DNA of 64,000 nucleotides from assembly GCA_000004985.1 (NCBI GenBank), contig GG738851.1. One strand, given 5' to 3'. Source of the stretch: Naegleria gruberi (taxonomy: Eukaryota). Of the stretch, positions 16,797-64,000 are shown piece after piece; within the stretch, counting starts at the first letter, position 1; every line of letters begins with the position of its first letter. The notes under the pieces were generated by a model, which saw only the letters and a program-made list of their open reading frames with translations, was not told the DNA's origin and ran no database searches. The translations under genes were made by a program, and so were the position numbers.

Positions 16797-17027
16797 GCAT
16801 TTTCTTGTTATTATAGCGTCTACTTAATATATTGTAATACTTGGCTCTCTCCGACAATTCTCCGCATGGCTGTTGAGAACTTCTTAAAAAATTCAATTTT
16901 GAGTTTGGTGTTGGTTGTTGAGGTGTTCTGGCGCCAAAACAAACATAAGAAAAATGCTCATATTGTATTATTACCTTCCGCACGGTCATAGAATCGTAAC
17001 AGAACGAGCAAACATCATTATCAAAAT

Positions 17028-19571
17028 ATGGCTTCATCAAATCATGGTATCCAAGAAGGAGTTGGAATGTTATGCAGAAGAGAATTGGTGGATAATTATC
17101 AAATCCTACTAGAACAGGCTCAAGCAAACATTAATGCAGGTAGTTGCTCTCTGGATGGTTTTTGTAGTCATCACAGTATGGAGAGTAATCATCACGAAAC
17201 AGAGGAATACACTCTCGGAATGGTTCATAATAAGGAGTCGGAAAGAGTATTCTTAAATGACTATTTTATGAATACCATTAAAAGAGGAGTAAAGAGGTAT
17301 GATTTTGAGAAGGATCCTATTCAGATTCAGTACAATGTTTTGCATACACCTTCTCATGTTAAGGTATTGAAGAATATAGTATCAAAACCTCATCCTGTAG
17401 TGTCATGCTATTGTACGGCATATAGCGAACATTATCCACTGATAATAATTCCAGATCATATTTGGATGATGATTTCTCAATCCTTGGTTAGACATTTGCA
17501 TCTTCATCCTGAAATTTTGCAGCAAGTTGATATTAAAAAGAAGGAAATGAGAGTGGAAATGCCTACACATTACAACGAAGAAACACAATCAACAAATTGG
17601 AGTGCAGTAATTGAAGATATTCATCAACAAATTGTTCAAACATGTACAACAAGCGAAAAGTTGGATTTGGATGGATTTTTGGATCATAACTTTTCCACAT
17701 CAACTTCAGTGGAAAAGGTTGCATCAAAGATTTTACTCATGGAGGCCTTTAAGGATTACTTTACATATACCAATGATTTTATGTGTGGAATTCCTTGTGT
17801 GACAATATTGGGAACTCTGCAAGACTGGACATTGATGAGACAGAAAGTCAATAGATTGGATGATTTTGGTATGGGATGGTGGAGAAAGGTATTGGCTCTC
17901 ATAATTGATAGAATAATTGAAACAGCCCAAAAGGATACACTGACAGACGAATTGAAATTGTTCTGGAATGGAGTGGCAAGGTTTGACAGTAGTAGTGGAG
18001 AGAATTTTATTACTGGTTGGATCAACTATTTTTTCCCATACGATAAGGATGGAAATATTTCAAACCAAATGCAATCATTTATGGAGATGGAAGAGAGATT
18101 CCCTAATGTTGATAAATATGTGGACGATTTTGAGGATCATGGTTTTGAGGATTGTGAATTTGAAGAAGAAGAAGGCGAGAATTCTCCTCAATCTTCAATA
18201 GAACTAGCCGCTTTAAAGATGCAGAAAACATTCAGATGGAAACCATCTTTTAATGAGGATTGCTTTCCTTGCCCTCTAGCAATTGCAAAGGTCAATGTTG
18301 AAAATCATCCATCCTTAAAAGAGTTGTACTATGTTTCCGGATTTATGGGAATTGATTTTGATCATGAAATTGGAGGTTTAAAACCTGTTATATCTTGGGC
18401 TATAGCAGAGAAGAGAAGTGAGGCTGTTAGAGAAAATCTAATGAAGGGCCAATTCAAACATGCAATGTGGGCAATAGACTGTGGTTATACTAGTTGGAGA
18501 GCTTCCATATCTCTCTCATCTACACAAACTAAGCCAATAGGCTCAATCAATATTGGATTTACCAGTGATGGAGAGCAGGAGAATGTTTTTGAAAGTAAGG
18601 AAAGAATGATTGAGATATTCACCGCTTTGAAAGAATCACTTGTGAGGCAATTCATTGAGGAGGAAGTTAATTTGGGATCAAACGATAATTTGAAATTCTT
18701 GGAAGGAGAGCATGTTCTCTTGATGTCTCCTGCTGAAGTCAACCAAGAGCTGCTTCTTCAATGCGCCAAATCTGCTGGTTTGAAACCAATATGTTGGGTG
18801 GAAGATCCATGTCATAATATTCCTCAAGCATTTTCCCATTTGGTGAAAACTAACGAATGTGTACTGACTATTGATTGGCCAACTGGAGAACCATTCTTTG
18901 CCATGTCCAAGAAGGAGCATTGGAATGAGTTCGATCTTTTTGCATCAAGTGTTGAAGGCAAGAAGGAAACTCAGGGACTTGGTGGCGGTTTCAGTTTTAC
19001 TGACATGCTGTACACCTATTTTTATGATCAACACCCTGAAATTGCAGAGGAAAATTCTCACTTTTTAATGATGGAATGTGAGAGAGCCAAAAAGGTTCTC
19101 TCAACTGAAGACAAGGTTGACATCTTGATTAATGGAAAGTCTATTGAGGTGATAACAAGACAAACTTTCGAACAGGTGTGCTCACCTATTTTCAATTCAT
19201 TCCAACAACAATTGAATGCTTTCCTTTCTAGGCCTTTCAATAATACCAATGAGACTTTGAAAGATCGTGTCAATTATTTGGTGCTGTCTGGTGGATGTTG
19301 TAGAATTCCTCTCGTTCAACAAATCATTCATACATGCCTTCCAAAATCTGTACAGACACTCAGTAATCCAGAGGATACTTGCTATCTTTCCTCAGCAGGA
19401 GGTGCTCAAACATTCAGAAGCAGTCATTACAATAATATTCAATTTGAGGAATTCTTTAGAGATCCTCATTCTGAAATCTTCTCTGACAATGAATCGTCAC
19501 TCTATCCACACAAAGATCCACAAGAAAGTGATATTGCAATTGCTGAAGGTGACGATCACGACAATGAATAA
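17028..19571 (+). CDS. Large 847-aa protein; the C-terminal segment resembles the Hsp70/actin-fold ATPase subdomain IIA/IIB, and the N-terminal two thirds are unknown
   Basis: A single ORF. ERAKKVLSTEDKVDILINGKSIEVITRQTFEQVCSPIF and VLSGGCCRIPLVQQIIHTCLPKSVQTLSNPEDTCYLSSAGGAQ parallel the Hsp70 motifs ERAKRTLS...ITRARFEEL...LVGGSTRIPKVQ...SINPDEAVA.GAA. Confidence 0.5.
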   Translation: MASSNHGIQEGVGMLCRRELVDNYQILLEQAQANINAGSCSLDGFCSHHSMESNHHETEEYTLGMVHNKESERVFLNDYFMNTIKRGVKRYDFEKDPIQIQYNVLHTPSHVKVLKNIVSKPHPVVSCYCTAYSEHYPLIIIPDHIWMMISQSLVRHLHLHPEILQQVDIKKKEMRVEMPTHYNEETQSTNWSAVIEDIHQQIVQTCTTSEKLDLDGFLDHNFSTSTSVEKVASKILLMEAFKDYFTYTNDFMCGIPCVTILGTLQDWTLMRQKVNRLDDFGMGWWRKVLALIIDRIIETAQKDTLTDELKLFWNGVARFDSSSGENFITGWINYFFPYDKDGNISNQMQSFMEMEERFPNVDKYVDDFEDHGFEDCEFEEEEGENSPQSSIELAALKMQKTFRWKPSFNEDCFPCPLAIAKVNVENHPSLKELYYVSGFMGIDFDHEIGGLKPVISWAIAEKRSEAVRENLMKGQFKHAMWAIDCGYTSWRASISLSSTQTKPIGSINIGFTSDGEQENVFESKERMIEIFTALKESLVRQFIEEEVNLGSNDNLKFLEGEHVLLMSPAEVNQELLLQCAKSAGLKPICWVEDPCHNIPQAFSHLVKTNECVLTIDWPTGEPFFAMSKKEHWNEFDLFASSVEGKKETQGLGGGFSFTDMLYTYFYDQHPEIAEENSHFLMMECERAKKVLSTEDKVDILINGKSIEVITRQTFEQVCSPIFNSFQQQLNAFLSRPFNNTNETLKDRVNYLVLSGGCCRIPLVQQIIHTCLPKSVQTLSNPEDTCYLSSAGGAQTFRSSHYNNIQFEEFFRDPHSEIFSDNESSLYPHKDPQESDIAIAEGDDHDNE

Positions 19572-32226: not shown

Positions 32227-34712
32227 NNNNNNNNNNNNNNNNNNNNNNNNNNNNNNNNNNNNNNNNNNNNNNNNNNNNNNNNNNNNNNNNNNNNNNNNNN
32301 NNNNNNNNNNNNNNNNNNNNNNNNNNNNNNNNNNNNNNNNNNNNNNNNNNNNNNNNNNNNNNNNNNNNNNNNNNNNNNNNNNNNNNNNNNNNNNNNNNNN
32401 NNNNNNNNNNNNNNNNNNNNNNNNNNNNNNNNNNNNNNNNNNNNNNNNNNNNNNNNNNNNNNNNNNNNNNNNNNNNNNNNNNNNNNNNNNNNNNNNNNNN
32501 NNNNNNNNNNNNNNNNNNNNNNNNNNNNNNNNNNNNNNNNNNNNNNNNNNNNNNNNNNNNNNNNNNNNNNNNNNNNNNNNNNNNNNNNNNNNNNNNNNNN
32601 NNNNNNNNNNNNNNNNNNNNNNNNNNNNNNNNNNNNNNNNNNNNNNNNNNNNNNNNNNNNNNNNNNNNNNNNNNNNNNNNNNNNNNNNNNNNNNNNNNNN
32701 NNNNNNNNNNNNNNNNNNNNNNNNNNNNNNNNNNNNNNNNNNNNNNNNNNNNNNNNNNNNNNNNNNNNNNNNNNNNNNNNNNNNNNNNNNNNNNNNNNNN
32801 NNNNNNNNNNNNNNNNNNNNNNNNNNNNNNNNNNNNNNNNNNNNNNNNNNNNNNNNNNNNNNNNNNNNNNNNNNNNNNNNNNNNNNNNNNNNNNNNNNNN
32901 NNNNNNNNNNNNNNNNNNNNNNNNNNNNNNNNNNNNNNNNNNNNNNNNNNNNNNNNNNNNNNNNNNNNNNNNNNNNNNNNNNNNNNNNNNNNNNNNNNNN
33001 NNNNNNNNNNNNNNNNNNNNNNNNNNNNNNNNNNNNNNNNNNNNNNNNNNNNNNNNNNNNNNNNNNNNNNNNNNNNNNNNNNNNNNNNNNNNNNNNNNNN
33101 NNNNNNNNNNNNNNNNNNNNNNNNNNNNNNNNNNNNNNNNNNNNNNNNNNNNNNNNNNNNNNNNNNNNNNNNNNNNNNNNNNNNNNNNNNNNNNNNNNNN
33201 NNNNNNNNNNNNNNNNNNNNNNNNNNNNNNNNNNNNNNNNNNNNNNNNNNNNNNNNNNNNNNNNNNNNNNNNNNNNNNNNNNNNNNNNNNNNNNNNNNNN
33301 NNNNNNNNNNNNNNNNNNNNNNNNNNNNNNNNNNNNNNNNNNNNNNNNNNNNNNNNNNNNNNNNNNNNNNNNNNNNNNNNNNNNNNNNNNNNNNNNNNNN
33401 NNNNNNNNNNNNNNNNNNNNNNNNNNNNNNNNNNNNNNNNNNNNNNNNNNNNNNNNNNNNNNNNNNNNNNNNNNNNNNNNNNNNNNNNNNNNNNNNNNNN
33501 NNNNNNNNNNNNNNNNNNNNNNNNNNNNNNNNNNNNNNNNNNNNNNNNNNNNNNNNNNNNNNNNNNNNNNNNNNNNNNNNNNNNNNNNNNNNNNNNNNNN
33601 NNNNNNNNNNNNNNNNNNNNNNNNNNNNNNNNNNNNNNNNNNNNNNNNNNNNNNNNNNNNNNNNNNNNNNNNNNNNNNNNNNNNNNNNNNNNNNNNNNNN
33701 NNNNNNNNNNNNNNNNNNNNNNNNNNNNNNNNNNNNNNNNNNNNNNNNNNNNNNNNNNNNNNNNNNNNNNNNNNNNNNNNNNNNNNNNNNNNNNNNNNNN
33801 NNNNNNNNNNNNNNNNNNNNNNNNNNNNNNNNNNNNNNNNNNNNNNNNNNNNNNNNNNNNNNNNNNNNNNNNNNNNNNNNNNNNNNNNNNNNNNNNNNNN
33901 NNNNNNNNNNNNNNNNNNNNNNNNNNNNNNNNNNNNNNNNNNNNNNNNNNNNNNNNNNNNNNNNNNNNNNNNNNNNNNNNNNNNNNNNNNNNNNNNNNNN
34001 NNNNNNNNNNNNNNNNNNNNNNNNNNNNNNNNNNNNNNNNNNNNNNNNNNNNNNNNNNNNNNNNNNNNNNNNNNNNNNNNNNNNNNNNNNNNNNNNNNNN
34101 NNNNNNNNNNNNNNNNNNNNNNNNNNNNNNNNNNNNNNNNNNNNNNNNNNNNNNNNNNNNNNNNNNNNNNNNNNNNNNNNNNNNNNNNNNNNNNNNNNNN
34201 NNNNNNNNNNNNNNNNNNNNNNNNNNNNNNNNNNNNNNNNNNNNNNNNNNNNNNNNNNNNNNNNNNNNNNNNNNNNNNNNNNNNNNNNNNNNNNNNNNNN
34301 NNNNNNNNNNNNNNNNNNNNNNNNNNNNNNNNNNNNNNNNNNNNNNNNNNNNNNNNNNNNNNNNNNNNNNNNNNNNNNNNNNNNNNNNNNNNNNNNNNNN
34401 NNNNNNNNNNNNNNNNNNNNNNNNNNNNNNNNNNNNNNNNNNNNNNNNNNNNNNNNNNNNNNNNNNNNNNNNNNNNNNNNNNNNNNNNNNNNNNNNNNNN
34501 NNNNNNNNNNNNNNNNNNNNNNNNNNNNNNNNNNNNNNNNNNNNNNNNNNNNNNNNNNNNNNNNNNNNNNNNNNNNNNNNNNNNNNNNNNNNNNNNNNNN
34601 NNNNNNNNNNNNNNNNNNNNNNNNNNNNNNNNNNNNNNNNNNNNNNNNNNNNNNNNNNNNNNNNNNNNNNNNNNNNNNNNNNNNNNNNNNNNNNNNNNNN
34701 NNNNNNNNNNNN
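32227..34712. other. Assembly gap (run of N)
   Basis: A continuous run of n from 32227 to 34712. Confidence 0.95.
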
Positions 34713-37088: not shown

Positions 37089-37159
37089 CGGCGTATGATG
37101 CAGAGGTAGCATGTTGGACTCTGAATCCAAATACGCAGGTTCGATTCCTGCTACGCTGG
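37089..37159 (+). tRNA. tRNA-Gln (anticodon CUG)
   Basis: I folded it by hand. The acceptor stem is CGGCGTA/TACGCTG. The D arm is ATGC-AGAGGTA-GCAT. The anticodon arm is TTGGA-CTCTGAA-TCCAA. The T arm is GCAGG-TTCGATT-CCTGC, and the discriminator is G. Confidence 0.6.
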
Positions 37160-38924: not shown

Positions 38925-38997
38925 GCTGGCGTAGCTCAGTCGGTAGAGCGTTGGTCTAATAAGCCATTGGTCGCCGGTTCGATCCCGTCCGTCAGCA
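38925..38997 (+). tRNA. tRNA-Ile (anticodon AAU)
   Basis: The acceptor stem GCTGGCG/CGTCAGC is perfect, with one G-U pair. The D arm is GCTC-AGTCGGTA-GAGC. The anticodon loop CTAATAA gives anticodon AAT. The T loop is TTCGATC. There is one mismatch in the anticodon stem and one in the T stem. Confidence 0.55.
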
Positions 38998-46328: not shown

Positions 46329-47292
46329 TTATTGTTGTACATCAACATTAACCATAGCTTGATCAGAAACTCCATTTTCCTGATATTGTTGTTGTTCAAC
46401 AATATAATTTTCACTCTTGACATCTTGTGTGATTGGTTGTTGTGGATAAACAACTTGTTCTTGACCTTGTGGATAATACTGAGCTGTTGTTGTTTGTGGT
46501 TGTTGCATTGGATAACCTTCTTGTTGTTGTTGCTGTGGAGGATAATATTGTTCTTGTTGTTGTGGAGGATAATATTGTGTTGTTGGTTGTGGTTGACCAT
46601 AACCTTGTTGTGGATATTGTTGTTGAATAATAACAGTAGTAGAACCTTCATTCTTTGGTTTGTAAGGTCCCAATATCTTTGCAACTCTAATTCTTTCAGT
46701 AAATAAATAATAATTAATCGATGTGAAAGCTCCGATAATTCCAATAGCGAATTGAATGACGAATGGAATGACAGTGACACCTGGATGAACGAATGCAAGC
46801 ACAGAGGATATGACAAATCCGTTGAATGAGGTACTTGTATTGAGGATGAGTGGAGTATGAGCCAATTCTTCATTGTAATAATTATGTAATATATTTAAAT
46901 ATATTAAGAATGCAACTATTCAGTAATTACTTACCAGTAACCCACAATAACAAGTAAATAAACGTAAAATATTGCATACCAAGCACATATGCCATCGTAT
47001 TCAATTTTACCATTCGAGAAGCAATGACAGGTGTCAATCTTGACTCTGGCATAAATAATGCCACTAATCCCATTGCTGCCATTGCCAGGAAAAAGAAACA
47101 AACAAGAACAAGAATCAGATCAGCAGTAGCATATCCTGGTATTGAGTTTCTGTAATAAGAAATCATCATTGCCATGTGGTAAATGAGCTGAAGTACGAGC
47201 CAGACAATGTGAACAATTTGGAGGACGGCATGACCAACTTTCCATGAGGAAGTTGTGGCTGTTGTGGCTGGATTATTGTTGGTATCCATCAT
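46329..47292 (-). CDS. Tetraspan membrane protein with a Q/P/Y-rich C-terminal tail; exons 47292-46935 and 46867-46329
   Basis: The start is MMDTNNNPATT. There are four hydrophobic helices. The donor g|gtaagt follows ...LLWVTG and the acceptor is atgaag|. The tail has YYPPQQQ repeats. The total is 897 nt. Confidence 0.45.
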
Positions 47293-48732: not shown

Positions 48733-48821
48733 CACAAGAAACACCAACAAATAAAAAACTCTACAAGAAACACCAACAAATAAAAACTCTACAAGAAACA
48801 CCAACAAATAAAAAACAACCA
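48733..48821. repeat. Tandem direct repeat of about 30 bp in 3 copies, immediately upstream of the P450 start codon
   Basis: The units are caagaaacaccaacaaataaaaaactcta, then caagaaacaccaacaaataaaaactcta, then caagaaacaccaacaaataaaaaacaacc. Confidence 0.7.
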
Positions 48822-54794: not shown

Positions 54795-55778
54795 TCAACC
54801 ATATAAACATTGATATTCAATTGAAAGATAAGACAAGTGTTTCATATCACGAATGACTGTTTCTCCTTCAATCTGAATTTCATTTTCTGAAATATCTAGG
54901 TGTGTTAATTTATCCATTCTACTGATTGAGATGGCACCCGCATTACCAATGAAACAATCTTGGATATAAAGTTCATTCAATTGTTTCATTTCACTAATCA
55001 TCCTTGCTCCTTCATCACCAATTCCAAAATTTTGACTAATGTAAAGTACAGTCAATTGATCCAATTCACTAATTGACTTGGCTCCAATAGGACTAATTCC
55101 ATTTAACGAAATATCGAGAATTTTCAATGATTTGATTTCACTTATAAATTTGGCTCCTTCATCACCAATATTATTGTAAGCAATATTTAGGAATGTTAAA
55201 TTATTCAATTTTGAAATAAATTTTGCAGATTTTGATGTAATTCTCAAGCTGCTAACTGTTAGATCAGTAAGATTGTCTAATTGACAAATTGATTCTATAC
55301 CTTCATCATTGATGGGATTATTACCAATGTTAAGGTAGGTCAAATTTCTTAATTCACTGATGGATTTGGCTCCTTCATTGAAGATTTGATTGATTTCCAA
55401 ATCAAGGCATGTCAACTGTTTCATTTCACTAATTAATTTAACCATATTGTCATCAATTAGATTATTTCCAATTTCCAAAGTGGTCAATTGAGTCATACGT
55501 CCTAACATGTTAAACCAATTGTCATTTAAAATATTGCGTGCAAATGTTATTGATACAAAACAATCCAAAAATTCATTATTTACTTGATTGACCAAATGAT
55601 TATTCGCCATCATTGAAAGCTCGGATCGATCTCGGATGACCTTCAACCATTGTTTTGTTACCATTACACAATTTAATAATACGAATTTCCAATCATCACA
55701 TAAATAGGAAATAATTTCATAAATTACATCATCAGAAAATATTTCTATTGCAATTATTAGCGAAACTTTGATCATCAC
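54795..55778 (-). CDS. F-box-like/leucine-rich-repeat protein
   Basis: The N-terminus DDVIYEIISYLCDDWKFVLLNCVMVTKQWLKVI is F-box-like. About 9 LRRs follow, with the pattern L..L.I..N.I.DEGAK.ISE(L/M). Confidence 0.55.
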   Translation of the reverse strand: MMIKVSLIIAIEIFSDDVIYEIISYLCDDWKFVLLNCVMVTKQWLKVIRDRSELSMMANNHLVNQVNNEFLDCFVSITFARNILNDNWFNMLGRMTQLTTLEIGNNLIDDNMVKLISEMKQLTCLDLEINQIFNEGAKSISELRNLTYLNIGNNPINDEGIESICQLDNLTDLTVSSLRITSKSAKFISKLNNLTFLNIAYNNIGDEGAKFISEIKSLKILDISLNGISPIGAKSISELDQLTVLYISQNFGIGDEGARMISEMKQLNELYIQDCFIGNAGAISISRMDKLTHLDISENEIQIEGETVIRDMKHLSYLSIEYQCLYG

Positions 55779-56127: not shown

Positions 56128-57576
56128 ATGAAACTAAACGAATTGGAAGCAGATGTTTTTCCTCTCATTTACTCATTCATTTATGAGTTGCCATTAAAAA
56201 GTTACGAGAAACAAGAAGGAAATAGCTCAATAGGATGGAGTACATTGGCCTTCCCACATACCTGCTCTAAAATTCTGACAAGTTTAGATTCGTATGCACC
56301 ATTCCAATTCGAAAAGTTTATTCAATTTTATTGTCTTGGAATTAAGAATCATAGGTATGAAGAACTGGAACCAATTATTAATGGACAAGATGCAGAGTTA
56401 AAGGATATAATTCCTGTGGTTTTCTATTTGAATTTCCCACAATTGAGTTTTATTGAACATTTACAATTCGAAAGAGATTTAATTCCAATGGAGAGAAAAA
56501 TTAGAAAATCTTTGAGTATTACTAGAAATAGATATGAAGATTTTCTATTCAAAATTGATAGAATTATTGAAATGTTATCTTCCTTCATTAAAATAATTAA
56601 AAAGAAACTTGGAGTGGATGAATTGACTCAAGAAATGGGACAAGTTTTTCAATTGACTGATACAAAGATTCTGCTTCCAATTTCTAGTTTAGTATCTGTA
56701 ATTGAAAACGTTGATCAAGTTGTGAACAAGTGTATGAAAATATTTCATTGGAAAGCTTTTCGAAACTATTACTTTGAAGAAGAATATCTGCAAGTTCCAA
56801 AAGAATTACCTCTCATTAACAAAAAGTACAGAGACTGTGAAAGAATAATCTCAATCTTGAAGAATAATGAATCATTTGAGAGGGCAGATGAGTTGTTAGA
56901 CTTGTTGTCAAATCTCGAATGTTACTATTGTGATAAGCTTGCTGCTAGTATTAGTCAACTCTTTTTCCAAGGACAATTTGTAAGAAATAGAACTAATATC
57001 AAGCTATTAAGGATGATGCTGTATTATGGAATGTATAATAACTCTGCTCTCTTTATGAAATGTCCAGAAGAAATTCAAAATGATGAGGAAATTGTAAAAC
57101 GATTCGTTTTTTCCAGTCCAAATATGTATTCCCATATTCCTAGCAAGTTTAAACAAGATAGTTCAATAATTGAGATGTGTATTTTCCAAAGTGATAGTTC
57201 TATTGAATTTATTTATGAAGAAACAGTAGGAAGAGATTCTTTGTTCTACAGTTTAGTACAGTATCCAACAATATTTTACACTTACCTAGCAAAATGCACA
57301 GAAACTCAATTTGTGCAAGATGTTATTGAAATTTTCATTGAAGTTCTCAAACATGATAAATTCCATCCAACTCTTCAGTCTTTCTTTAGAGATGGTATGT
57401 TTTTACGGTCTATCCTATCTCATGGAAGAATTCTAAGTGAACAAAGAGATTGGGATGATCCAGCTATCCAAGAAATCAGATCTGATTTTGAAGCTTATCT
57501 GAGTGTTATTGACACTTTCAAACGTGAGTATCTCAATGACCATACCAGTACTTCAGACCTCCTCAAGTTGATCTAA
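56128..57576 (+). CDS. Hypothetical protein, 482 aa, with no recognised domain
   Basis: A single long ORF with ordinary composition. There is no internal repeat and no obvious intron signal. Confidence 0.35.
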   Translation: MKLNELEADVFPLIYSFIYELPLKSYEKQEGNSSIGWSTLAFPHTCSKILTSLDSYAPFQFEKFIQFYCLGIKNHRYEELEPIINGQDAELKDIIPVVFYLNFPQLSFIEHLQFERDLIPMERKIRKSLSITRNRYEDFLFKIDRIIEMLSSFIKIIKKKLGVDELTQEMGQVFQLTDTKILLPISSLVSVIENVDQVVNKCMKIFHWKAFRNYYFEEEYLQVPKELPLINKKYRDCERIISILKNNESFERADELLDLLSNLECYYCDKLAASISQLFFQGQFVRNRTNIKLLRMMLYYGMYNNSALFMKCPEEIQNDEEIVKRFVFSSPNMYSHIPSKFKQDSSIIEMCIFQSDSSIEFIYEETVGRDSLFYSLVQYPTIFYTYLAKCTETQFVQDVIEIFIEVLKHDKFHPTLQSFFRDGMFLRSILSHGRILSEQRDWDDPAIQEIRSDFEAYLSVIDTFKREYLNDHTSTSDLLKLI

Positions 57577-58630
57577 TAAATTGTATGGCCTCAGATACCC
57601 CATTCTAATATTGATTCAATTTGATACACACCTTATTGATACAACACTTGATTGATATTTAGAATTAATCATGTTGAATATGTTTAATTAATAAATTTTC
57701 AACTTTTCCAAAAATCAACTTCAACAATTAATGTACGATTATACGAATGATATTATAATCATTTCCAATTTCATATATATGATATAAAATGATGAAATAT
57801 ACCTTTTAGATTTGTTGAAAATATAATATATGATATCCTTAGTATTCTGTACTCATACTTCCTAAGGTGTTGACCAAGATGTTGACCTAAAATATGGAAA
57901 TACTCTAAAATTCAATCATACTGATAAATACAGTAGTTAATATGAATATTTATGATAAATCACTGAAGCAACCATGATTGGATCCCTTTTTGAAACTTTT
58001 GGAAGTCAACTTGGATGAAAGTAGGGAACGTTTGCTATGGTTAACACTTTTAAAGGGATATGAATATTTTATTGGATACTATCTGTTTTTACTGTACTTT
58101 ATCAATAAATATTGAATATCATGATGTTACAATCTATATTTCCAATTTGGGAAATGTTGCAGTTTTAATGTTTAATTGAAATATTGCCATCACGCCAATA
58201 ATATCATAAAAATGATATTATATACTTTAATTGAGATGTATATGAATATAGAATTGAAAGATTTGATTTTAGACATTTATTAATGGCATGGGTAGTTCAC
58301 TATGGTAGTAACTTATATGATAACTGTCTAAGATAATGTTCAAGTCATTCCTAAATTGATATTATAAGAATATATAATGATTAAAACATTATAATAATTA
58401 ATTGGAATTGATTATTAAACTGTATTGACGTATAAGAATGTTACCTTTGATGAATTGGGTCAGTAACTTGACAGATAAACCAGTTATATTGATGTTGATT
58501 TAAATTACCTCAGAAACGTTACAAATATCATTTATAAGAGTAGTGGTATGATATTTTATATTGTTGTATATCTTGATTTTGACTTGTAACGTGGTCATGA
58601 GTAATTGCTGACAGGGTTGTATACTGATTG

Positions 58631-58800
58631 TGTCCAATTGATATGAAATTGATAGAAACCTATTTATATGATGTTTATAAACATATGGTATCAGTTTGGT
58701 AAAGAATCTCATTGTCCTTAGGGTATTTTCCTATTGAGGTACCTTAATTGACCATCTCTATATTTAAATTGAGGTATGATGTTTATTTCAATTGTCATGT
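58631..58800. repeat. Subtelomere-associated repeat, copy A
   Basis: It is about 85% identical by eye to 63200-63367. Both share tgtccaa.tgat.tgaaattgatagaaacct...ctcattgtccttagggta...cctattgaggtaccttaattgac.atctc.atatttaa. Confidence 0.6.
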
Positions 58801-59096
58801 AAATGATGGATAAGTAGCCAAGGTGCGCATATGACACTGAATGGTGTAGAATCGGTATAACATTATTTTCAACATTTGCAAGTGCCATTTCTCATCATCC
58901 CACAAAAATTGTTTTTACATTAATTGCTAATGATTTTTATTAATTTTTATTAAGTCAATTTTATTAATAATTAATGAAAAGTCGTTAATAAAAACGTTAA
59001 ACCTTGTTCGTGAAGAAAATCGACTTTTAATGCGTTATTTTAACGTCATTAATTAATATTAATTATTAATGCTAATTCGCCAATAAACTGAGTGTT

Positions 59097-62000
59097 NNNN
59101 NNNNNNNNNNNNNNNNNNNNNNNNNNNNNNNNNNNNNNNNNNNNNNNNNNNNNNNNNNNNNNNNNNNNNNNNNNNNNNNNNNNNNNNNNNNNNNNNNNNN
59201 NNNNNNNNNNNNNNNNNNNNNNNNNNNNNNNNNNNNNNNNNNNNNNNNNNNNNNNNNNNNNNNNNNNNNNNNNNNNNNNNNNNNNNNNNNNNNNNNNNNN
59301 NNNNNNNNNNNNNNNNNNNNNNNNNNNNNNNNNNNNNNNNNNNNNNNNNNNNNNNNNNNNNNNNNNNNNNNNNNNNNNNNNNNNNNNNNNNNNNNNNNNN
59401 NNNNNNNNNNNNNNNNNNNNNNNNNNNNNNNNNNNNNNNNNNNNNNNNNNNNNNNNNNNNNNNNNNNNNNNNNNNNNNNNNNNNNNNNNNNNNNNNNNNN
59501 NNNNNNNNNNNNNNNNNNNNNNNNNNNNNNNNNNNNNNNNNNNNNNNNNNNNNNNNNNNNNNNNNNNNNNNNNNNNNNNNNNNNNNNNNNNNNNNNNNNN
59601 NNNNNNNNNNNNNNNNNNNNNNNNNNNNNNNNNNNNNNNNNNNNNNNNNNNNNNNNNNNNNNNNNNNNNNNNNNNNNNNNNNNNNNNNNNNNNNNNNNNN
59701 NNNNNNNNNNNNNNNNNNNNNNNNNNNNNNNNNNNNNNNNNNNNNNNNNNNNNNNNNNNNNNNNNNNNNNNNNNNNNNNNNNNNNNNNNNNNNNNNNNNN
59801 NNNNNNNNNNNNNNNNNNNNNNNNNNNNNNNNNNNNNNNNNNNNNNNNNNNNNNNNNNNNNNNNNNNNNNNNNNNNNNNNNNNNNNNNNNNNNNNNNNNN
59901 NNNNNNNNNNNNNNNNNNNNNNNNNNNNNNNNNNNNNNNNNNNNNNNNNNNNNNNNNNNNNNNNNNNNNNNNNNNNNNNNNNNNNNNNNNNNNNNNNNNN
60001 NNNNNNNNNNNNNNNNNNNNNNNNNNNNNNNNNNNNNNNNNNNNNNNNNNNNNNNNNNNNNNNNNNNNNNNNNNNNNNNNNNNNNNNNNNNNNNNNNNNN
60101 NNNNNNNNNNNNNNNNNNNNNNNNNNNNNNNNNNNNNNNNNNNNNNNNNNNNNNNNNNNNNNNNNNNNNNNNNNNNNNNNNNNNNNNNNNNNNNNNNNNN
60201 NNNNNNNNNNNNNNNNNNNNNNNNNNNNNNNNNNNNNNNNNNNNNNNNNNNNNNNNNNNNNNNNNNNNNNNNNNNNNNNNNNNNNNNNNNNNNNNNNNNN
60301 NNNNNNNNNNNNNNNNNNNNNNNNNNNNNNNNNNNNNNNNNNNNNNNNNNNNNNNNNNNNNNNNNNNNNNNNNNNNNNNNNNNNNNNNNNNNNNNNNNNN
60401 NNNNNNNNNNNNNNNNNNNNNNNNNNNNNNNNNNNNNNNNNNNNNNNNNNNNNNNNNNNNNNNNNNNNNNNNNNNNNNNNNNNNNNNNNNNNNNNNNNNN
60501 NNNNNNNNNNNNNNNNNNNNNNNNNNNNNNNNNNNNNNNNNNNNNNNNNNNNNNNNNNNNNNNNNNNNNNNNNNNNNNNNNNNNNNNNNNNNNNNNNNNN
60601 NNNNNNNNNNNNNNNNNNNNNNNNNNNNNNNNNNNNNNNNNNNNNNNNNNNNNNNNNNNNNNNNNNNNNNNNNNNNNNNNNNNNNNNNNNNNNNNNNNNN
60701 NNNNNNNNNNNNNNNNNNNNNNNNNNNNNNNNNNNNNNNNNNNNNNNNNNNNNNNNNNNNNNNNNNNNNNNNNNNNNNNNNNNNNNNNNNNNNNNNNNNN
60801 NNNNNNNNNNNNNNNNNNNNNNNNNNNNNNNNNNNNNNNNNNNNNNNNNNNNNNNNNNNNNNNNNNNNNNNNNNNNNNNNNNNNNNNNNNNNNNNNNNNN
60901 NNNNNNNNNNNNNNNNNNNNNNNNNNNNNNNNNNNNNNNNNNNNNNNNNNNNNNNNNNNNNNNNNNNNNNNNNNNNNNNNNNNNNNNNNNNNNNNNNNNN
61001 NNNNNNNNNNNNNNNNNNNNNNNNNNNNNNNNNNNNNNNNNNNNNNNNNNNNNNNNNNNNNNNNNNNNNNNNNNNNNNNNNNNNNNNNNNNNNNNNNNNN
61101 NNNNNNNNNNNNNNNNNNNNNNNNNNNNNNNNNNNNNNNNNNNNNNNNNNNNNNNNNNNNNNNNNNNNNNNNNNNNNNNNNNNNNNNNNNNNNNNNNNNN
61201 NNNNNNNNNNNNNNNNNNNNNNNNNNNNNNNNNNNNNNNNNNNNNNNNNNNNNNNNNNNNNNNNNNNNNNNNNNNNNNNNNNNNNNNNNNNNNNNNNNNN
61301 NNNNNNNNNNNNNNNNNNNNNNNNNNNNNNNNNNNNNNNNNNNNNNNNNNNNNNNNNNNNNNNNNNNNNNNNNNNNNNNNNNNNNNNNNNNNNNNNNNNN
61401 NNNNNNNNNNNNNNNNNNNNNNNNNNNNNNNNNNNNNNNNNNNNNNNNNNNNNNNNNNNNNNNNNNNNNNNNNNNNNNNNNNNNNNNNNNNNNNNNNNNN
61501 NNNNNNNNNNNNNNNNNNNNNNNNNNNNNNNNNNNNNNNNNNNNNNNNNNNNNNNNNNNNNNNNNNNNNNNNNNNNNNNNNNNNNNNNNNNNNNNNNNNN
61601 NNNNNNNNNNNNNNNNNNNNNNNNNNNNNNNNNNNNNNNNNNNNNNNNNNNNNNNNNNNNNNNNNNNNNNNNNNNNNNNNNNNNNNNNNNNNNNNNNNNN
61701 NNNNNNNNNNNNNNNNNNNNNNNNNNNNNNNNNNNNNNNNNNNNNNNNNNNNNNNNNNNNNNNNNNNNNNNNNNNNNNNNNNNNNNNNNNNNNNNNNNNN
61801 NNNNNNNNNNNNNNNNNNNNNNNNNNNNNNNNNNNNNNNNNNNNNNNNNNNNNNNNNNNNNNNNNNNNNNNNNNNNNNNNNNNNNNNNNNNNNNNNNNNN
61901 NNNNNNNNNNNNNNNNNNNNNNNNNNNNNNNNNNNNNNNNNNNNNNNNNNNNNNNNNNNNNNNNNNNNNNNNNNNNNNNNNNNNNNNNNNNNNNNNNNNN

Positions 62001-62302
62001 NNNNNNNNNNNNNNNNNNNNNNNNNNNNNNNNNNNNNNNNNNNNNNNNNNNNNNNNNNNNNNNNNNNNNNNNNNNNNNNNNNNNNNNNNNNNNNNNNNNN
62101 NNNNNNNNNNNNNNNNNNNNNNNNNNNNNNNNNNNNNNNNNNNNNNNNNNNNNNNNNNNNNNNNNNNNNNNNNNNNNNNNNNNNNNNNNNNNNNNNNNNN
62201 NNNNNNNNNNNNNNNNNNNNNNNNNNNNNNNNNNNNNNNNNNNNNNNNNNNNNNNNNNNNNNNNNNNNNNNNNNNNNNNNNNNNNNNNNNNNNNNNNNNN
62301 NN
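59097..62302. other. Assembly gap (run of N)
   Basis: A continuous run of n. Confidence 0.95.
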
Positions 62303-62815
62303 TCATGTTGGTAAAGTTTCAATAGGTGGTCCTTTTTCAAGATTTCATCCTTTTCATCAAAGTGACCATGTGTGATTGAGGGAAGAAATCTCTAAATATG
62401 AAAGTTAAAATAAATTTGATATTCGATGCTTACTCATCAAATGGAACATTTTCATATTAGGATTCAATATGTTTTGATGAGAAACTCAAAAGTTATAGTT
62501 GACCTCTTTTACCTCACAACTTCCCTTTTCACTTGATACTTTTATACCTACAGACATGAAGTTTAGAAATTTCATATGAGAGTGATTATGAATGTTGTTA
62601 GTGAAGATATATACTATATAATCTCATTAAAGGATTTTGAAATTATCATTCTTCCTATGGTATCATTTTACAAATTTTAATCTGATATTATTTACAAAGT
62701 TAATATTTTATAAATTGAAAAACTAAATATACTACGTTGTTCTACTCATCATTTCCTATCGAATGATATAAAATTTAATGATATTTGAATAAGTTTATAA
62801 TTTTGGGCTAGGGTT

Positions 62816-63118
62816 TGAAGGTTGGGTTTGGGTTGGGTTTGGGTTTGGGTTGGGTTTGGGTTTGTGGTTGGGTTTGGGTTTGGGTTTGGGTTTGGTTTGG
62901 GTTTGGGTTTGGGTTTGGGTTTGGGTTTGGGTTTGGGTTTGGGTTTGGGTTTGGGTTTGGGTTTGGGTTTGGGTTTGGGTTTGGGTTTGGGTTTGGGTTT
63001 GGGTTTGGGTTTGGGTTTGGGTTTGGGTTTGGGTTTGGGTTTGGGTTTGGGTTTGGGTTTGGGTTTGGGTTTGGGTTTGGGTTTGGGTTTGGGTTTGGGT
63101 TTGGGTTTGGGTTTGGGT
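62816..63118. repeat. Interstitial telomere-like array (GGGTTT)n with degenerate 5' units, abutting a small N gap
   Basis: About 45 perfect gggttt units follow variants such as ggttgggttt and gtggttgggttt. The array runs into the n run at 63119-63168. Confidence 0.85.
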
Positions 63119-63199
63119 NNNNNNNNNNNNNNNNNNNNNNNNNNNNNNNNNNNNNNNNNNNNNNNNNNCTGACATGGTTGAATGACATGAATATTGAAT

Positions 63200-63367
63200 G
63201 ATGTCCAAATGATTTGAAATTGATAGAAACCTCATTATATGATGTTAATAACATATTGTATCAATTTGGTAATGAATCTCATTGTCCTTAGGGTACATCC
63301 CTATTGAGGTACCTTAATTGACTATCTCAATATTTAATATGAGATATGATATTTATTTCAATTCTAT
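63200..63367. repeat. Subtelomere-associated repeat, copy B
   Basis: It is homologous to 58631-58800. Confidence 0.6.
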
Positions 63368-63800
63368 CATGTTATACAAGTAATTTGAAGCATTTTGATA
63401 TAAGTATTGATAGTTAAATATGATTTAATAGATATCATATATAGCATCTCTTAGTTTTTCAAAATTGACTTTGAGATTCCCTAATTGACCATATATATAT
63501 GACCAATTGATGAAACTAATATCAATCGACTAGATTTTTAATTGTGAACACAATGGTATCAATAGTTATATGATTCATGATAGTTTAAAATTGACTTGGT
63601 CGCGTAGTACTTTTTCAGCAAATTTTTCAAAAAAAACAGCAAAGGATGGTCTGTTTCAGCAAGCCATGTGCTTATCATTTTTACTGAATCCGCGCATACT
63701 TAATCAGCAAATAAACAGTAAATTGGCAAAATTTTACTGAATAAGCCACGAAATTGTTCCCATTTAGCAAGTGAAGAAAGTAAAAAAAATACCTCTGGTG

Positions 63801-64000
63801 GTTTGGGTTTGGGTTTGGGTTTGGGTTTGGGTTTGGGTTTGGGTTTGGGTTTGGGTTTGGGTTTGGGTTTGGGTTTGGGTTTGGGTTTGGGTTTGGGTTT
63901 GGGTTTGGGTTTGGGTTTGGGTTTGGGTTTGGGTTTGGGTTTGGGTTTGGGTTTGGGTTTGGGTTTGGGTTTGGGTTTGGGTTTGGGTTTGGGTTTGGGT
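63801..64000. repeat. Terminal telomere-like array (GGGTTT)n running to the window end
   Basis: Perfect gggttt hexamers run from 63801 to the last base. The G-rich strand reads 5' to 3' toward the end, as expected for a chromosome terminus. Confidence 0.85.

What the first reader, a model, noticed from the sequence alone, without database searches (positions are those of the whole stretch)
58631..64000. Chromosome-end architecture: two (GGGTTT)n arrays with a duplicated subtelomeric element
The window ends in a perfect (GGGTTT)n array in the orientation expected of a true telomere. A second array at 62816-63118 lies about 700 bp inside it, with degenerate units at its proximal edge. Each array, or the gap preceding it, is paired with a copy of a roughly 170-bp element at about 85% identity (58631-58800 and 63200-63367). 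The 3.2-kb N gap at 59097-62302 sits right after copy A and may hide a third array. Either this terminus has nested (TAS-repeat-telomere)n units, or the scaffolder stacked two different chromosome ends. GGGTTT is not the classical TTAGGG or TTGGGG repeat, so it is taxonomically informative.
Basis: seen in the sequence. Interest (0 to 1): 0.6.

Follow-up and report, generated by a model that had tools for sequence, protein, structure and literature searches.

The report
Naegleria telomere repeats, stacked end contigs
The window is the end of a Naegleria gruberi genome scaffold that carries the species' already-reported TTTGGG telomere repeat, and the apparent "telomere inside a telomere" is most likely two short telomere-bearing contigs chained together across runs of N by the assembler.

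Summary
There are two same-orientation (TTTGGG)n arrays, at 62802-63118 and 63800-64000, and a repeated element of about 185 bp (58618-58800 and 63188-63372, 86.6% identical).

A run of 50 N (63119-63168) directly abuts the distal edge of the "internal" array. The region is therefore three separate contigs:
- X, which ends at 59096.
- Y, 62303-63118, 816 bp.
- Z, 63169-64000, 832 bp.

Y and Z each end in a telomere array and are joined only by Ns. No contiguous sequence shows unique DNA distal to array 1.

A protein encoded in the window is 100% identical to a Naegleria gruberi protein. TTTGGG was already published in 2013 as that species' candidate telomere repeat.

Best reading (about 0.7): the telomere repeats are genuine, and two alternative chromosome-end contigs were stacked by the scaffolder. 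They could come from different homologues or from paralogous ends. A truly nested subtelomere remains possible (about 0.12).

The element looks like a low-copy, AT-rich subtelomeric repeat, with a degenerate tandem neighbour in Z. With only two good copies, its link to telomeres is unproven.

Verdict: already known, largely an assembly effect, low interest.

The parts
57577..59096 (.). Non-coding, AT-rich tail of contig X, distal to the last gene. It ends at the 3.2-kb gap and has no telomeric units.
   Evidence: The last long ORF ends at 57576. GC is 26.3% against 34.2% for the rest of the window. Short ORFs here have no Pfam match. No Rfam or tRNA match. No TTTGGG dimer.
58618..58800 (+). 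Copy A of the repeated element of about 185 bp. It is a solo copy in contig X.
   Evidence: 86.6% identity over 186 columns to 63188-63372, E = 2e-49. Smith-Waterman z = 65. Alignments.
59097..62302 (.). Scaffold gap of 3,206 N between contigs X and Y.
   Evidence: Neither flank carries telomeric units.
62303..62801 (.). Unique part of contig Y (the contig is 816 bp in total).
   Evidence: No similarity to the X tail or to Z beyond chance. GC 25.9%.
62802..63118 (+). Telomere array 1. Variant units fill the proximal ~100 nt, then 37 perfect TTTGGG units run up to the contig edge.
   Evidence: TRF period 6, 53.2 copies, 93% matches. Unit-by-unit parse. Perfect runs at 62870-62893 and 62899-63114.
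63119..63168 (.). 50-N scaffold gap directly abutting array 1.
63188..63372 (+). Copy B of the element. Homology probably starts at the first base of contig Z (63169).
63360..63545 (+). Possible degenerate tandem second unit (B') of the element, about 50% identical to A and B.
   Evidence: Three colinear seed matches at spacings of 167-171 nt. Global alignment z = 4.1 against A and 3.8 against B; these are the second and third best of 78 unit pairs. Alignment. The evidence is weak.
63546..63799 (.). Remaining unique part of contig Z, up to the abrupt junction ...CTCTGGTGG|TTTGGG.
   Evidence: No similarity to X or Y.
63800..64000 (+). Telomere array 2. It has 33 perfect TTTGGG units, starts without degenerate units, and runs to the end of the window.
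   Evidence: TRF 33.5 copies, 100% matches..

Best explanation
The window is the end of a Naegleria gruberi draft-genome scaffold. Both (TTTGGG)n arrays are genuine telomerase-type telomere repeats, cloned and sequenced from chromosome termini.

They are not shown to lie on one DNA molecule in the printed order. Each array caps its own contig of about 0.8 kb (Y: 62303-63118; Z: 63169-64000). The scaffolder chained these behind contig X across N gaps of 3,206 and 50.

The most likely history, which is inferred, runs as follows. Reads starting at the telomeric end of cloned inserts ran about 800 nt inward and formed two small contigs. Mate pairs tied both to the unique contig X. Because both compete for the same terminal position, they were placed one after the other with a minimal placeholder gap.

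Y and Z would then be alternative ends. They could come from two homologues with different terminal structure, or from two paralogous chromosome ends that share subtelomeric sequence. The element of about 185 bp shared by X and Z at 87% identity is one trace of such shared sequence.

That element is best read as a unit of an AT-rich, low-copy subtelomeric repeat: solo in X, and followed by a decayed tandem neighbour in Z.

Array 1, with degenerate proximal units, looks like a long-established telomere. Array 2 is perfect from an abrupt TGGTGG junction and looks like a younger telomere addition. This last point is also inference.
For: Species:
- The ORF at 16992-19568 is 100% identical to an NCBI 'predicted protein [Naegleria gruberi]' on a 693,645-bp record.
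- TTTGGG is published as the N. gruberi candidate telomere, taken from scaffold ends (PMC3622300).

The arrays behave like telomeres:
- 45 and 33 TTTGGG units.
- G strand running 5'->3' toward the end.
- No second occurrence of even a dimer on either strand elsewhere in the window.

The layout rests on gaps:
- N runs at 59097-62302 and 63119-63168.
- Array 1 stops exactly at the 50-N run, and contig Z starts with no telomeric unit.

Signature of the contigs:
- Y is 816 bp and Z is 832 bp, each about one Sanger read long, measured from the telomeric end. That the assembly is Sanger-based is from my memory of Fritz-Laylin et al. 2010.
- A 317-bp array is shorter than such a read. In a truly nested locus, several reads should have bridged it and closed the gap (inference).
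- The gap of 50 is a round value next to two sized gaps of 2,486 and 3,206. This suggests a floor or placeholder rather than a measurement (inference).

X-Z homology:
- It runs to the very first bases of Z.
- The true sequence left of Z is therefore more likely X-like than a telomere array.
- At 86.6% identity, Z is a paralogue of the X region rather than an allele.
Against: - No reads, mate pairs or independent assembly could be examined, so the stacking is inferred from layout, not demonstrated.
- Mate-pair scaffolding is usually right about order. A short internal telomere tract followed by a subtelomeric element and a terminal tract is a real architecture in other organisms, for example yeast Y' arrays.
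- Both arrays share the orientation expected of such nesting.
- I could not confirm the gap convention of the assembler (one search found nothing).
- I could not confirm that base 64000 is the scaffold end.
Confidence: 0.7

Rival explanations
1. The nesting is real. This chromosome end carries an internal (TTTGGG)n tract of about 320 bp, then roughly 680 bp of subtelomeric sequence that begins with the repeated element, then the terminal telomere. Such a layout could arise by telomere healing followed by recombination or break-induced copying of another chromosome's end onto it, as with the tandem Y' elements of yeast.
For: - Both arrays are in the same orientation.
- Array 1 has the degenerate proximal units typical of an old telomere that could since have been buried.
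- Copy B lies directly distal to array 1 in the scaffold.
- The scaffolder presumably had mate-pair support for the order.
Against: - There is no sequence continuity across the junction. A 50-N gap sits exactly at the array edge, and Z's first bases carry no repeat unit, although a 317-bp array should be bridgeable by reads of about 800 nt.
- Copy A is not preceded by any telomeric tract, so the unit 'array + element' does not repeat.
- X-Z homology runs into the edge of contig Z. It would have to stop within the 50 unsequenced bases.
Confidence: 0.12
2. Allelic structural heterozygosity. Y and Z are the two different distal ends of the two homologues of the same chromosome, for example one homologue truncated and healed by new telomere addition. 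Both therefore truly link to X. This is a special case of the best explanation, listed separately because it would be a biological finding rather than a mis-join.
For: - Both small contigs are tied to the same unique contig X in the scaffold.
- Y and Z share no sequence apart from the telomere repeat.
- Array 2 starts abruptly at a G/T-rich seed (TGGTGG), as expected for de novo telomere addition, whereas array 1 has a degenerate base.
- N. gruberi NEG-M was described as heterozygous (my recollection of Fritz-Laylin et al. 2010; not checked here).
Against: There are no read data. The 87%-identical element in X and Z points to paralogous subtelomeric sequence, which could equally mislead mate-pair placement from a different chromosome end.
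Confidence: 0.25
3. The arrays are not telomeres. They are an ordinary internal microsatellite or a cloning or assembly chimera.
For: No experiment (Bal31, terminal restriction fragments) has shown a terminal position in Naegleria. PMC3622300 itself calls the repeat a candidate.
Against: - The unit is a classic T(n)G(n) telomerase-type unit.
- The repeats are strictly strand-oriented toward the sequence ends.
- They are found only at contig ends and never internally in 62.8 kb.
- The same repeat was reported at N. gruberi scaffold ends.
Confidence: 0.03

Closest known systems
Candidate Naegleria gruberi telomere repeat TTTGGG (Fulneckova et al. 2013, Genome Biol Evol, PMC3622300)
   Same: Same species, same hexamer, and the same kind of evidence: arrays at the ends of assembly scaffolds in the correct orientation.
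   Different: Nothing substantive. This window is one instance of what that survey reported. The survey gave no description of subtelomeric structure in the text I could read, and its supplementary table is not held.
[quoted passage not shown]
   Same: TTTGGG is one of the two Paramecium hexamers.
   Different: These arrays are pure TTTGGG. There is no GGGG-containing unit in either array. The genes use the standard genetic code with long TAA/TAG-free ORFs, and a protein matches Naegleria at 100% identity. The organism is a heterolobosean, not a ciliate.
Saccharomyces cerevisiae X / Y' subtelomeres with internal TG1-3 tracts between tandem Y' elements (own knowledge)
   Same: Same-orientation internal and terminal telomere tracts, with a repeated subtelomeric element between them. 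This is what the scaffold looks like if taken at face value.
   Different: Continuity across the internal tract is not demonstrated here, because of the 50-N gap. The repeated element is about 0.18 kb rather than 5-7 kb. Its other copy (A) has no internal tract beside it.
Interstitial (TTAGGG)n islands at block boundaries in human subtelomeres (own knowledge)
   Same: Degenerate telomere-like tracts in the telomere orientation, lying proximal to the true terminus.
   Different: Those tracts are flanked by contiguous sequence on both sides. Here the distal flank is missing.
Stacked or redundant terminal contigs in mate-pair scaffolded draft assemblies (general assembly artefact, own knowledge)
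   Same: Small read-length contigs joined only by Ns at a scaffold end. A minimal round-number gap. Both contigs end in the same terminal repeat.
   Different: This cannot be proven without the reads.

Membership tests
Telomerase-type telomere repeat array | Tandem array of a short T/G-rich unit | tested here: met
   Period 6. Array 1 has 53.2 copies at 93% matches and array 2 has 33.5 copies at 100%. Unit parse.
Telomerase-type telomere repeat array | G-rich strand runs 5'->3' toward the end of the molecule | tested here: met
   Both arrays read TTTGGG on the + strand toward the window or contig end. No CCCAAA array occurs anywhere.
Telomerase-type telomere repeat array | Nothing but repeat lies distal to the array (terminal position in the sequence) | tested here: inconclusive
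   Array 2 runs to the last base of the window, and array 1 runs to a contig end followed by 50 N. Whether base 64000 is the scaffold end, and whether either array is the physical chromosome end, cannot be seen from the window.
Telomerase-type telomere repeat array | Same repeat at other chromosome ends of the species | not testable with these tools
   No Naegleria genome DNA is reachable. The literature reports TTTGGG at N. gruberi scaffold ends (PMC3622300).
Telomerase-type telomere repeat array | Bal31 sensitivity or a terminal restriction fragment smear; telomerase RNA template complementary to the repeat | not testable with these tools
   The first needs an experiment. The telomerase RNA gene is not in this window as far as the searches show (Rfam search of 57000-64000 only).
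Interstitial telomeric sequence (ITS) | Array flanked on both sides by contiguous non-telomeric sequence | tested here: not met
   The distal flank of array 1 is a 50-N gap at 63119-63168.
Nested subtelomere of the yeast X-TG-Y'-TG type | Repeated subtelomeric element, each copy bounded proximally by an internal telomere tract | tested here: not met
   Copy A (58618-58800) has no TTTGGG dimer anywhere upstream in the window. Copy B adjoins array 1 only through a gap.
Tandem telomere-associated satellite (TAS) | Head-to-tail tandem units next to the telomere | tested here: inconclusive
   Copy B is followed by a B' unit about 50% identical (z about 4). TRF finds no such array, and ungapped autocorrelation shows no clear 170-nt peak in Z. 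Copy A is solo.
Tandem telomere-associated satellite (TAS) | Present at many chromosome ends and rare elsewhere | not testable with these tools
   Only two good copies are visible, both in this window. Metagenome scans gave 0 hits and 2 chance hits.
Scaffolding artefact (stacked terminal contigs) | The join is supported only by Ns, with no overlapping sequence | tested here: met
   Gaps of 3,206 and 50 N. Y and Z share nothing but the telomere repeat.
Scaffolding artefact (stacked terminal contigs) | Component contigs of about one read length, anchored at the repeat | tested here: met
   Y is 816 bp and Z is 832 bp, and each ends in the array. That the reads were Sanger reads is from memory.
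Scaffolding artefact (stacked terminal contigs) | Reads or mate pairs show the two contigs belong to different molecules | not testable with these tools
   There is no access to trace reads or long reads.

The most novel reading that the evidence does not exclude
The scaffold order is correct. This Naegleria chromosome end then carries a buried former telomere (array 1, with a degenerate base), about 0.7 kb of captured subtelomeric sequence starting with a repeat unit of about 180 bp, and a young perfect telomere. That would be a footprint of telomere healing followed by recombinational end capture in a heterolobosean, a lineage whose telomere biology is essentially undescribed.
Probability: 0.12. 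Interest if true: 0.4.

Novelty: already known. Interest (0 to 1): 0.15.

Why it matters
Very little changes. The telomere motif of N. gruberi was already inferred from this same assembly in 2013, and the striking double-telomere layout is most likely a by-product of scaffolding.

There are two practical points:
- This scaffold end should not be cited as evidence for interstitial telomere tracts or nested subtelomeres in Naegleria without read-level support.
- Sequences Y (62303-62801), Z (63373-63799) and the element of about 185 bp are ready-made probes for describing Naegleria subtelomeres in the existing long-read re-assembly. If Y and Z both turn out to link to X, that would document structural heterozygosity at a chromosome end.

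Tried and rejected
- Independent copies of this locus. The look-up of encoding contigs failed both for the N. gruberi protein P0001 and for the terminal gene 56128-57576. The collection appears to hold no N. gruberi gene calls; the matching cluster had a single member and no Logan source. I therefore did not spend a second large protein search on it.
- The element in JGI metagenomes. A conserved 23-mer gave 0 hits. A conserved 18-mer gave two contigs, L001 and L002, that match only the 18 bases and nothing around them, so they are chance hits.
- Structured RNA or tRNA-derived element. Rfam gave only two sub-threshold matches (E = 0.2-0.3, far below the gathering scores). There is no tRNA near the end. 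Fold z-scores of -0.3, -2.5, +0.6 and -0.9 are not consistent between the copies. Rejected.
- Coding element. Short ORFs over copy A and in Z have no Pfam match. Rejected.
- Ciliate origin, suggested by TTTGGG in Paramecium. Rejected on the standard genetic code and the 100% Naegleria protein match.
- A 170-nt periodicity across the X tail. Ungapped autocorrelation gives only borderline peaks (shift 336, z = 4.7, against a control 95th percentile of 4.0; shift 171, z = 2.6). Unit-by-unit alignments in X are not significant. Left as unproven.
- The assembler's gap convention (a 50-N floor). The literature search found nothing relevant.
- The genome paper by Fritz-Laylin et al. 2010 is not held, and the supplement of PMC3622300 is not held.


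Full report
**What is in the sequence**

Reading 58000-59200 and 62200-64000 and scanning the whole window shows three runs of N, not two:
- 32227-34712 (2,486 N).
- 59097-62302 (3,206 N).
- 63119-63168 (50 N).

The end of the window is therefore three contigs:
- X, up to 59096.
- Y, 62303-63118, 816 bp.
- Z, 63169-64000, 832 bp.

Y ends in a (TTTGGG)n array at 62802-63118. Tandem Repeats Finder (TRF) gives 53.2 copies at 93% matches. Z ends in a second array at 63800-64000, with 33.5 copies at 100% matches.

A unit-by-unit parse shows how the two arrays differ. Array 1 opens with about 100 nt of variant units (TAGGG, TTTGAAGG, TTGGG x4, TTTGTGG, TTTGG), followed by 37 perfect units up to the contig edge. 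Array 2 is perfect from an abrupt junction...CTCTGGTGG|TTTGGG.

Both arrays have the G-rich strand running toward the end. Nowhere else in the window does even a dimer of TTTGGG or CCCAAA occur. The arrays are real and far beyond chance.

**The duplicated element**

58618-58800 aligns with 63188-63372 at 86.6% identity over 186 columns (E = 2e-49; Smith-Waterman z = 65 against shuffles; alignments).

Its right edge is defined, because X and Z share nothing beyond it. Its left edge is not. The first 12 bases of contig Z (CTGACATGGTTG) still match X (CTGACAGGGTTG) after a short indel, so the homology is cut off by the contig boundary.

In Z the element is followed by a much more decayed second unit, 63360-63545, about 50% identical. 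The support is three colinear seeds at spacings of 167-171 nt and global-alignment z of about 4 against both A and B, the second and third best of 78 unit pairs. This hints at a tandem, satellite-like origin, but the evidence is weak. TRF does not detect it, and ungapped autocorrelation shows no clear peak in Z.

Copy A in X is solo. X tail, Y and Z otherwise share no sequence. All three are non-coding by every test I could apply:
- No long ORFs.
- No Pfam match.
- No Rfam or tRNA match.
- No consistent folding signal.

They are also more AT-rich than the rest of the window, at 26-28% GC against 34%.

**Whose genome is it**

The window has long ORFs in the standard genetic code. The ORF at 16992-19568 is 100% identical over 99% of its length to an NCBI "predicted protein [Naegleria gruberi]" seen on a 693,645-bp record. 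The next hit is a Naegleria lovaniensis protein at 50% identity.

The window is thus part of the N. gruberi draft assembly. From memory, that assembly is a Sanger whole-genome shotgun assembly scaffolded with mate pairs (Fritz-Laylin et al. 2010). The paper itself is not held.

**What is already known**

Fulneckova et al. [quoted passage not shown] They noted that experimental confirmation of terminal position was still needed (PMC3622300). In the searchable library no other paper links Naegleria with TTTGGG.

TTTGGG is otherwise known as one of the two hexamers that Paramecium telomerase produces, mixed with TTGGGG (PMC13085455, PMC5855555). The arrays here contain no GGGG unit.

**Nested subtelomere or stacked contigs?**

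No contiguous sequence supports unique DNA distal to array 1. The only link between array 1 and contig Z is a run of 50 N, and the only link between X and Y is a run of 3,206 N. Several features point to stacking:
- *Contig length.* Y and Z are 816 and 832 bp. That is the length expected of contigs built from reads that start at the telomeric end of a cloned insert and run inward.
- *Bridgeable array.* Array 1 is only 317 bp, well within one such read. If unique sequence really followed it, several shotgun reads should have bridged the array and the assembler would have closed the junction. Instead, Y stops inside perfect repeats and Z begins with no repeat unit.
- *Gap size.* The value 50 is a round number beside two sized gaps. 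It looks like a placeholder for "no room" or "unknown" rather than a measurement. This is inference; I could not document the convention.
- *Homology at the contig edge.* The X-Z homology runs to the first base of Z. The true sequence to the left of Z is therefore more likely X-like than telomeric.
- *No repeating unit.* The supposed unit "array + element" does not recur. Copy A has no telomeric tract anywhere upstream, and contig X ends without one.

Two points favour real nesting. Both arrays have the same orientation. Mate-pair scaffolds usually get the order right.

I put stacking at about 0.7 and real nesting at about 0.12. Within stacking, I cannot separate two versions. In one, two homologues of this chromosome have different ends; the abrupt TGGTGG junction of array 2 would fit a healed break. 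In the other, a contig from a paralogous chromosome end has been pulled in through shared subtelomeric sequence.

**The 3.2-kb gap**

Nothing suggests a third array. Neither flank (59096 or 62303) carries a repeat unit. A contig that ended because it ran into a telomere, as Y does, would show repeat units at its edge.

Contig X instead ends in an extremely AT-rich, partly palindromic stretch at 58900-59096 (self-reverse-complement hits). That is a plausible reason for a sequencing or assembly break.

**What could not be done**

No independent Naegleria DNA is reachable with these tools. Look-ups by exact protein failed. Metagenome scans with conserved cores of the element returned nothing or only chance 18-mers.

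A Nanopore/Flye re-assembly of N. gruberi exists (PMC12695648, methods). It would settle the question in minutes. The tests are listed under decisive next steps.

I also cannot verify that base 64000 is the scaffold end. That rests on the plausibility of a window ending inside a perfect, correctly oriented array.

**Verdict**

The telomere repeat is genuine and already published for this species. The double-array architecture is most probably an assembly construct. The 185-bp element is a real low-copy repeat of unknown distribution. Novelty: already known. Interest: low, at 0.15.

Noticed in passing
window 63790-63805 versus 62795-62900: The two telomere junctions differ. Array 2 starts abruptly and perfectly after a G/T-rich seed (CTCTGGTGG|TTTGGG), as in de novo telomere addition. 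Array 1 has about 100 nt of degenerate units, mainly 5-nt TTGGG, at its base, as in an old telomere.
   Followed up: partly
window 57577-59096, 62303-62801, 63169-63799: The hexamer AATTGA occurs 16 times on the + strand in the 2.65 kb of terminal non-coding DNA (6.0 per kb against 1.1 per kb in the rest of the window), against 5 for its complement. However, 1.5-kb windows over the LRR gene reach 7-8 as well, and 6 of the 16 lie in the two element copies. The signal is weak.
   Followed up: partly
window 58900-59096: Contig X ends in a very AT-rich stretch full of short palindromes and inverted repeats (TTAATTAAT-type). This is a likely technical cause of the contig break at the 3.2-kb gap.
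   Followed up: no
window 54795-55778 (-) and 56128-57576 (+): The last two genes before the end encode a leucine-rich-repeat protein and a DUF4116 protein. The LRR gene has a 72-nt (24-aa) periodicity that appears as repeat family D2. Genes therefore run to within about 6.4 kb of the window end.
   Followed up: partly
window 62303-62392 (-): A stop-free minus-strand frame of 29 codons (RFLPSITHGHFDEKDEILKKDHLLKLYQH) runs from contig Y into the 3.2-kb gap. It is too short to judge whether a gene lies in the gap.
   Followed up: no
window 16992-19568 (+): The protein used to identify the species carries Pfam PF00012 (Hsp70) and PF14388. Its best non-gruberi relative, from N. lovaniensis, is only 50% identical over 46% of its length. 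It is a fast-diverging Naegleria-specific protein.
   Followed up: no
window 37089-37159 and 38925-38997 (+): Two tRNA genes, tRNA-Gln(CTG) and tRNA-Ile(AAT), lie 1.8 kb apart.
   Followed up: no
window 32227-34712: There is a further sized scaffold gap of 2,486 N in the middle of the window.
   Followed up: no
window 46521-46592 and 48734-48816: Short tandem repeats with periods of 27 and 28 nt lie in or near ORFs rich in homopolymeric amino-acid runs.
   Followed up: no
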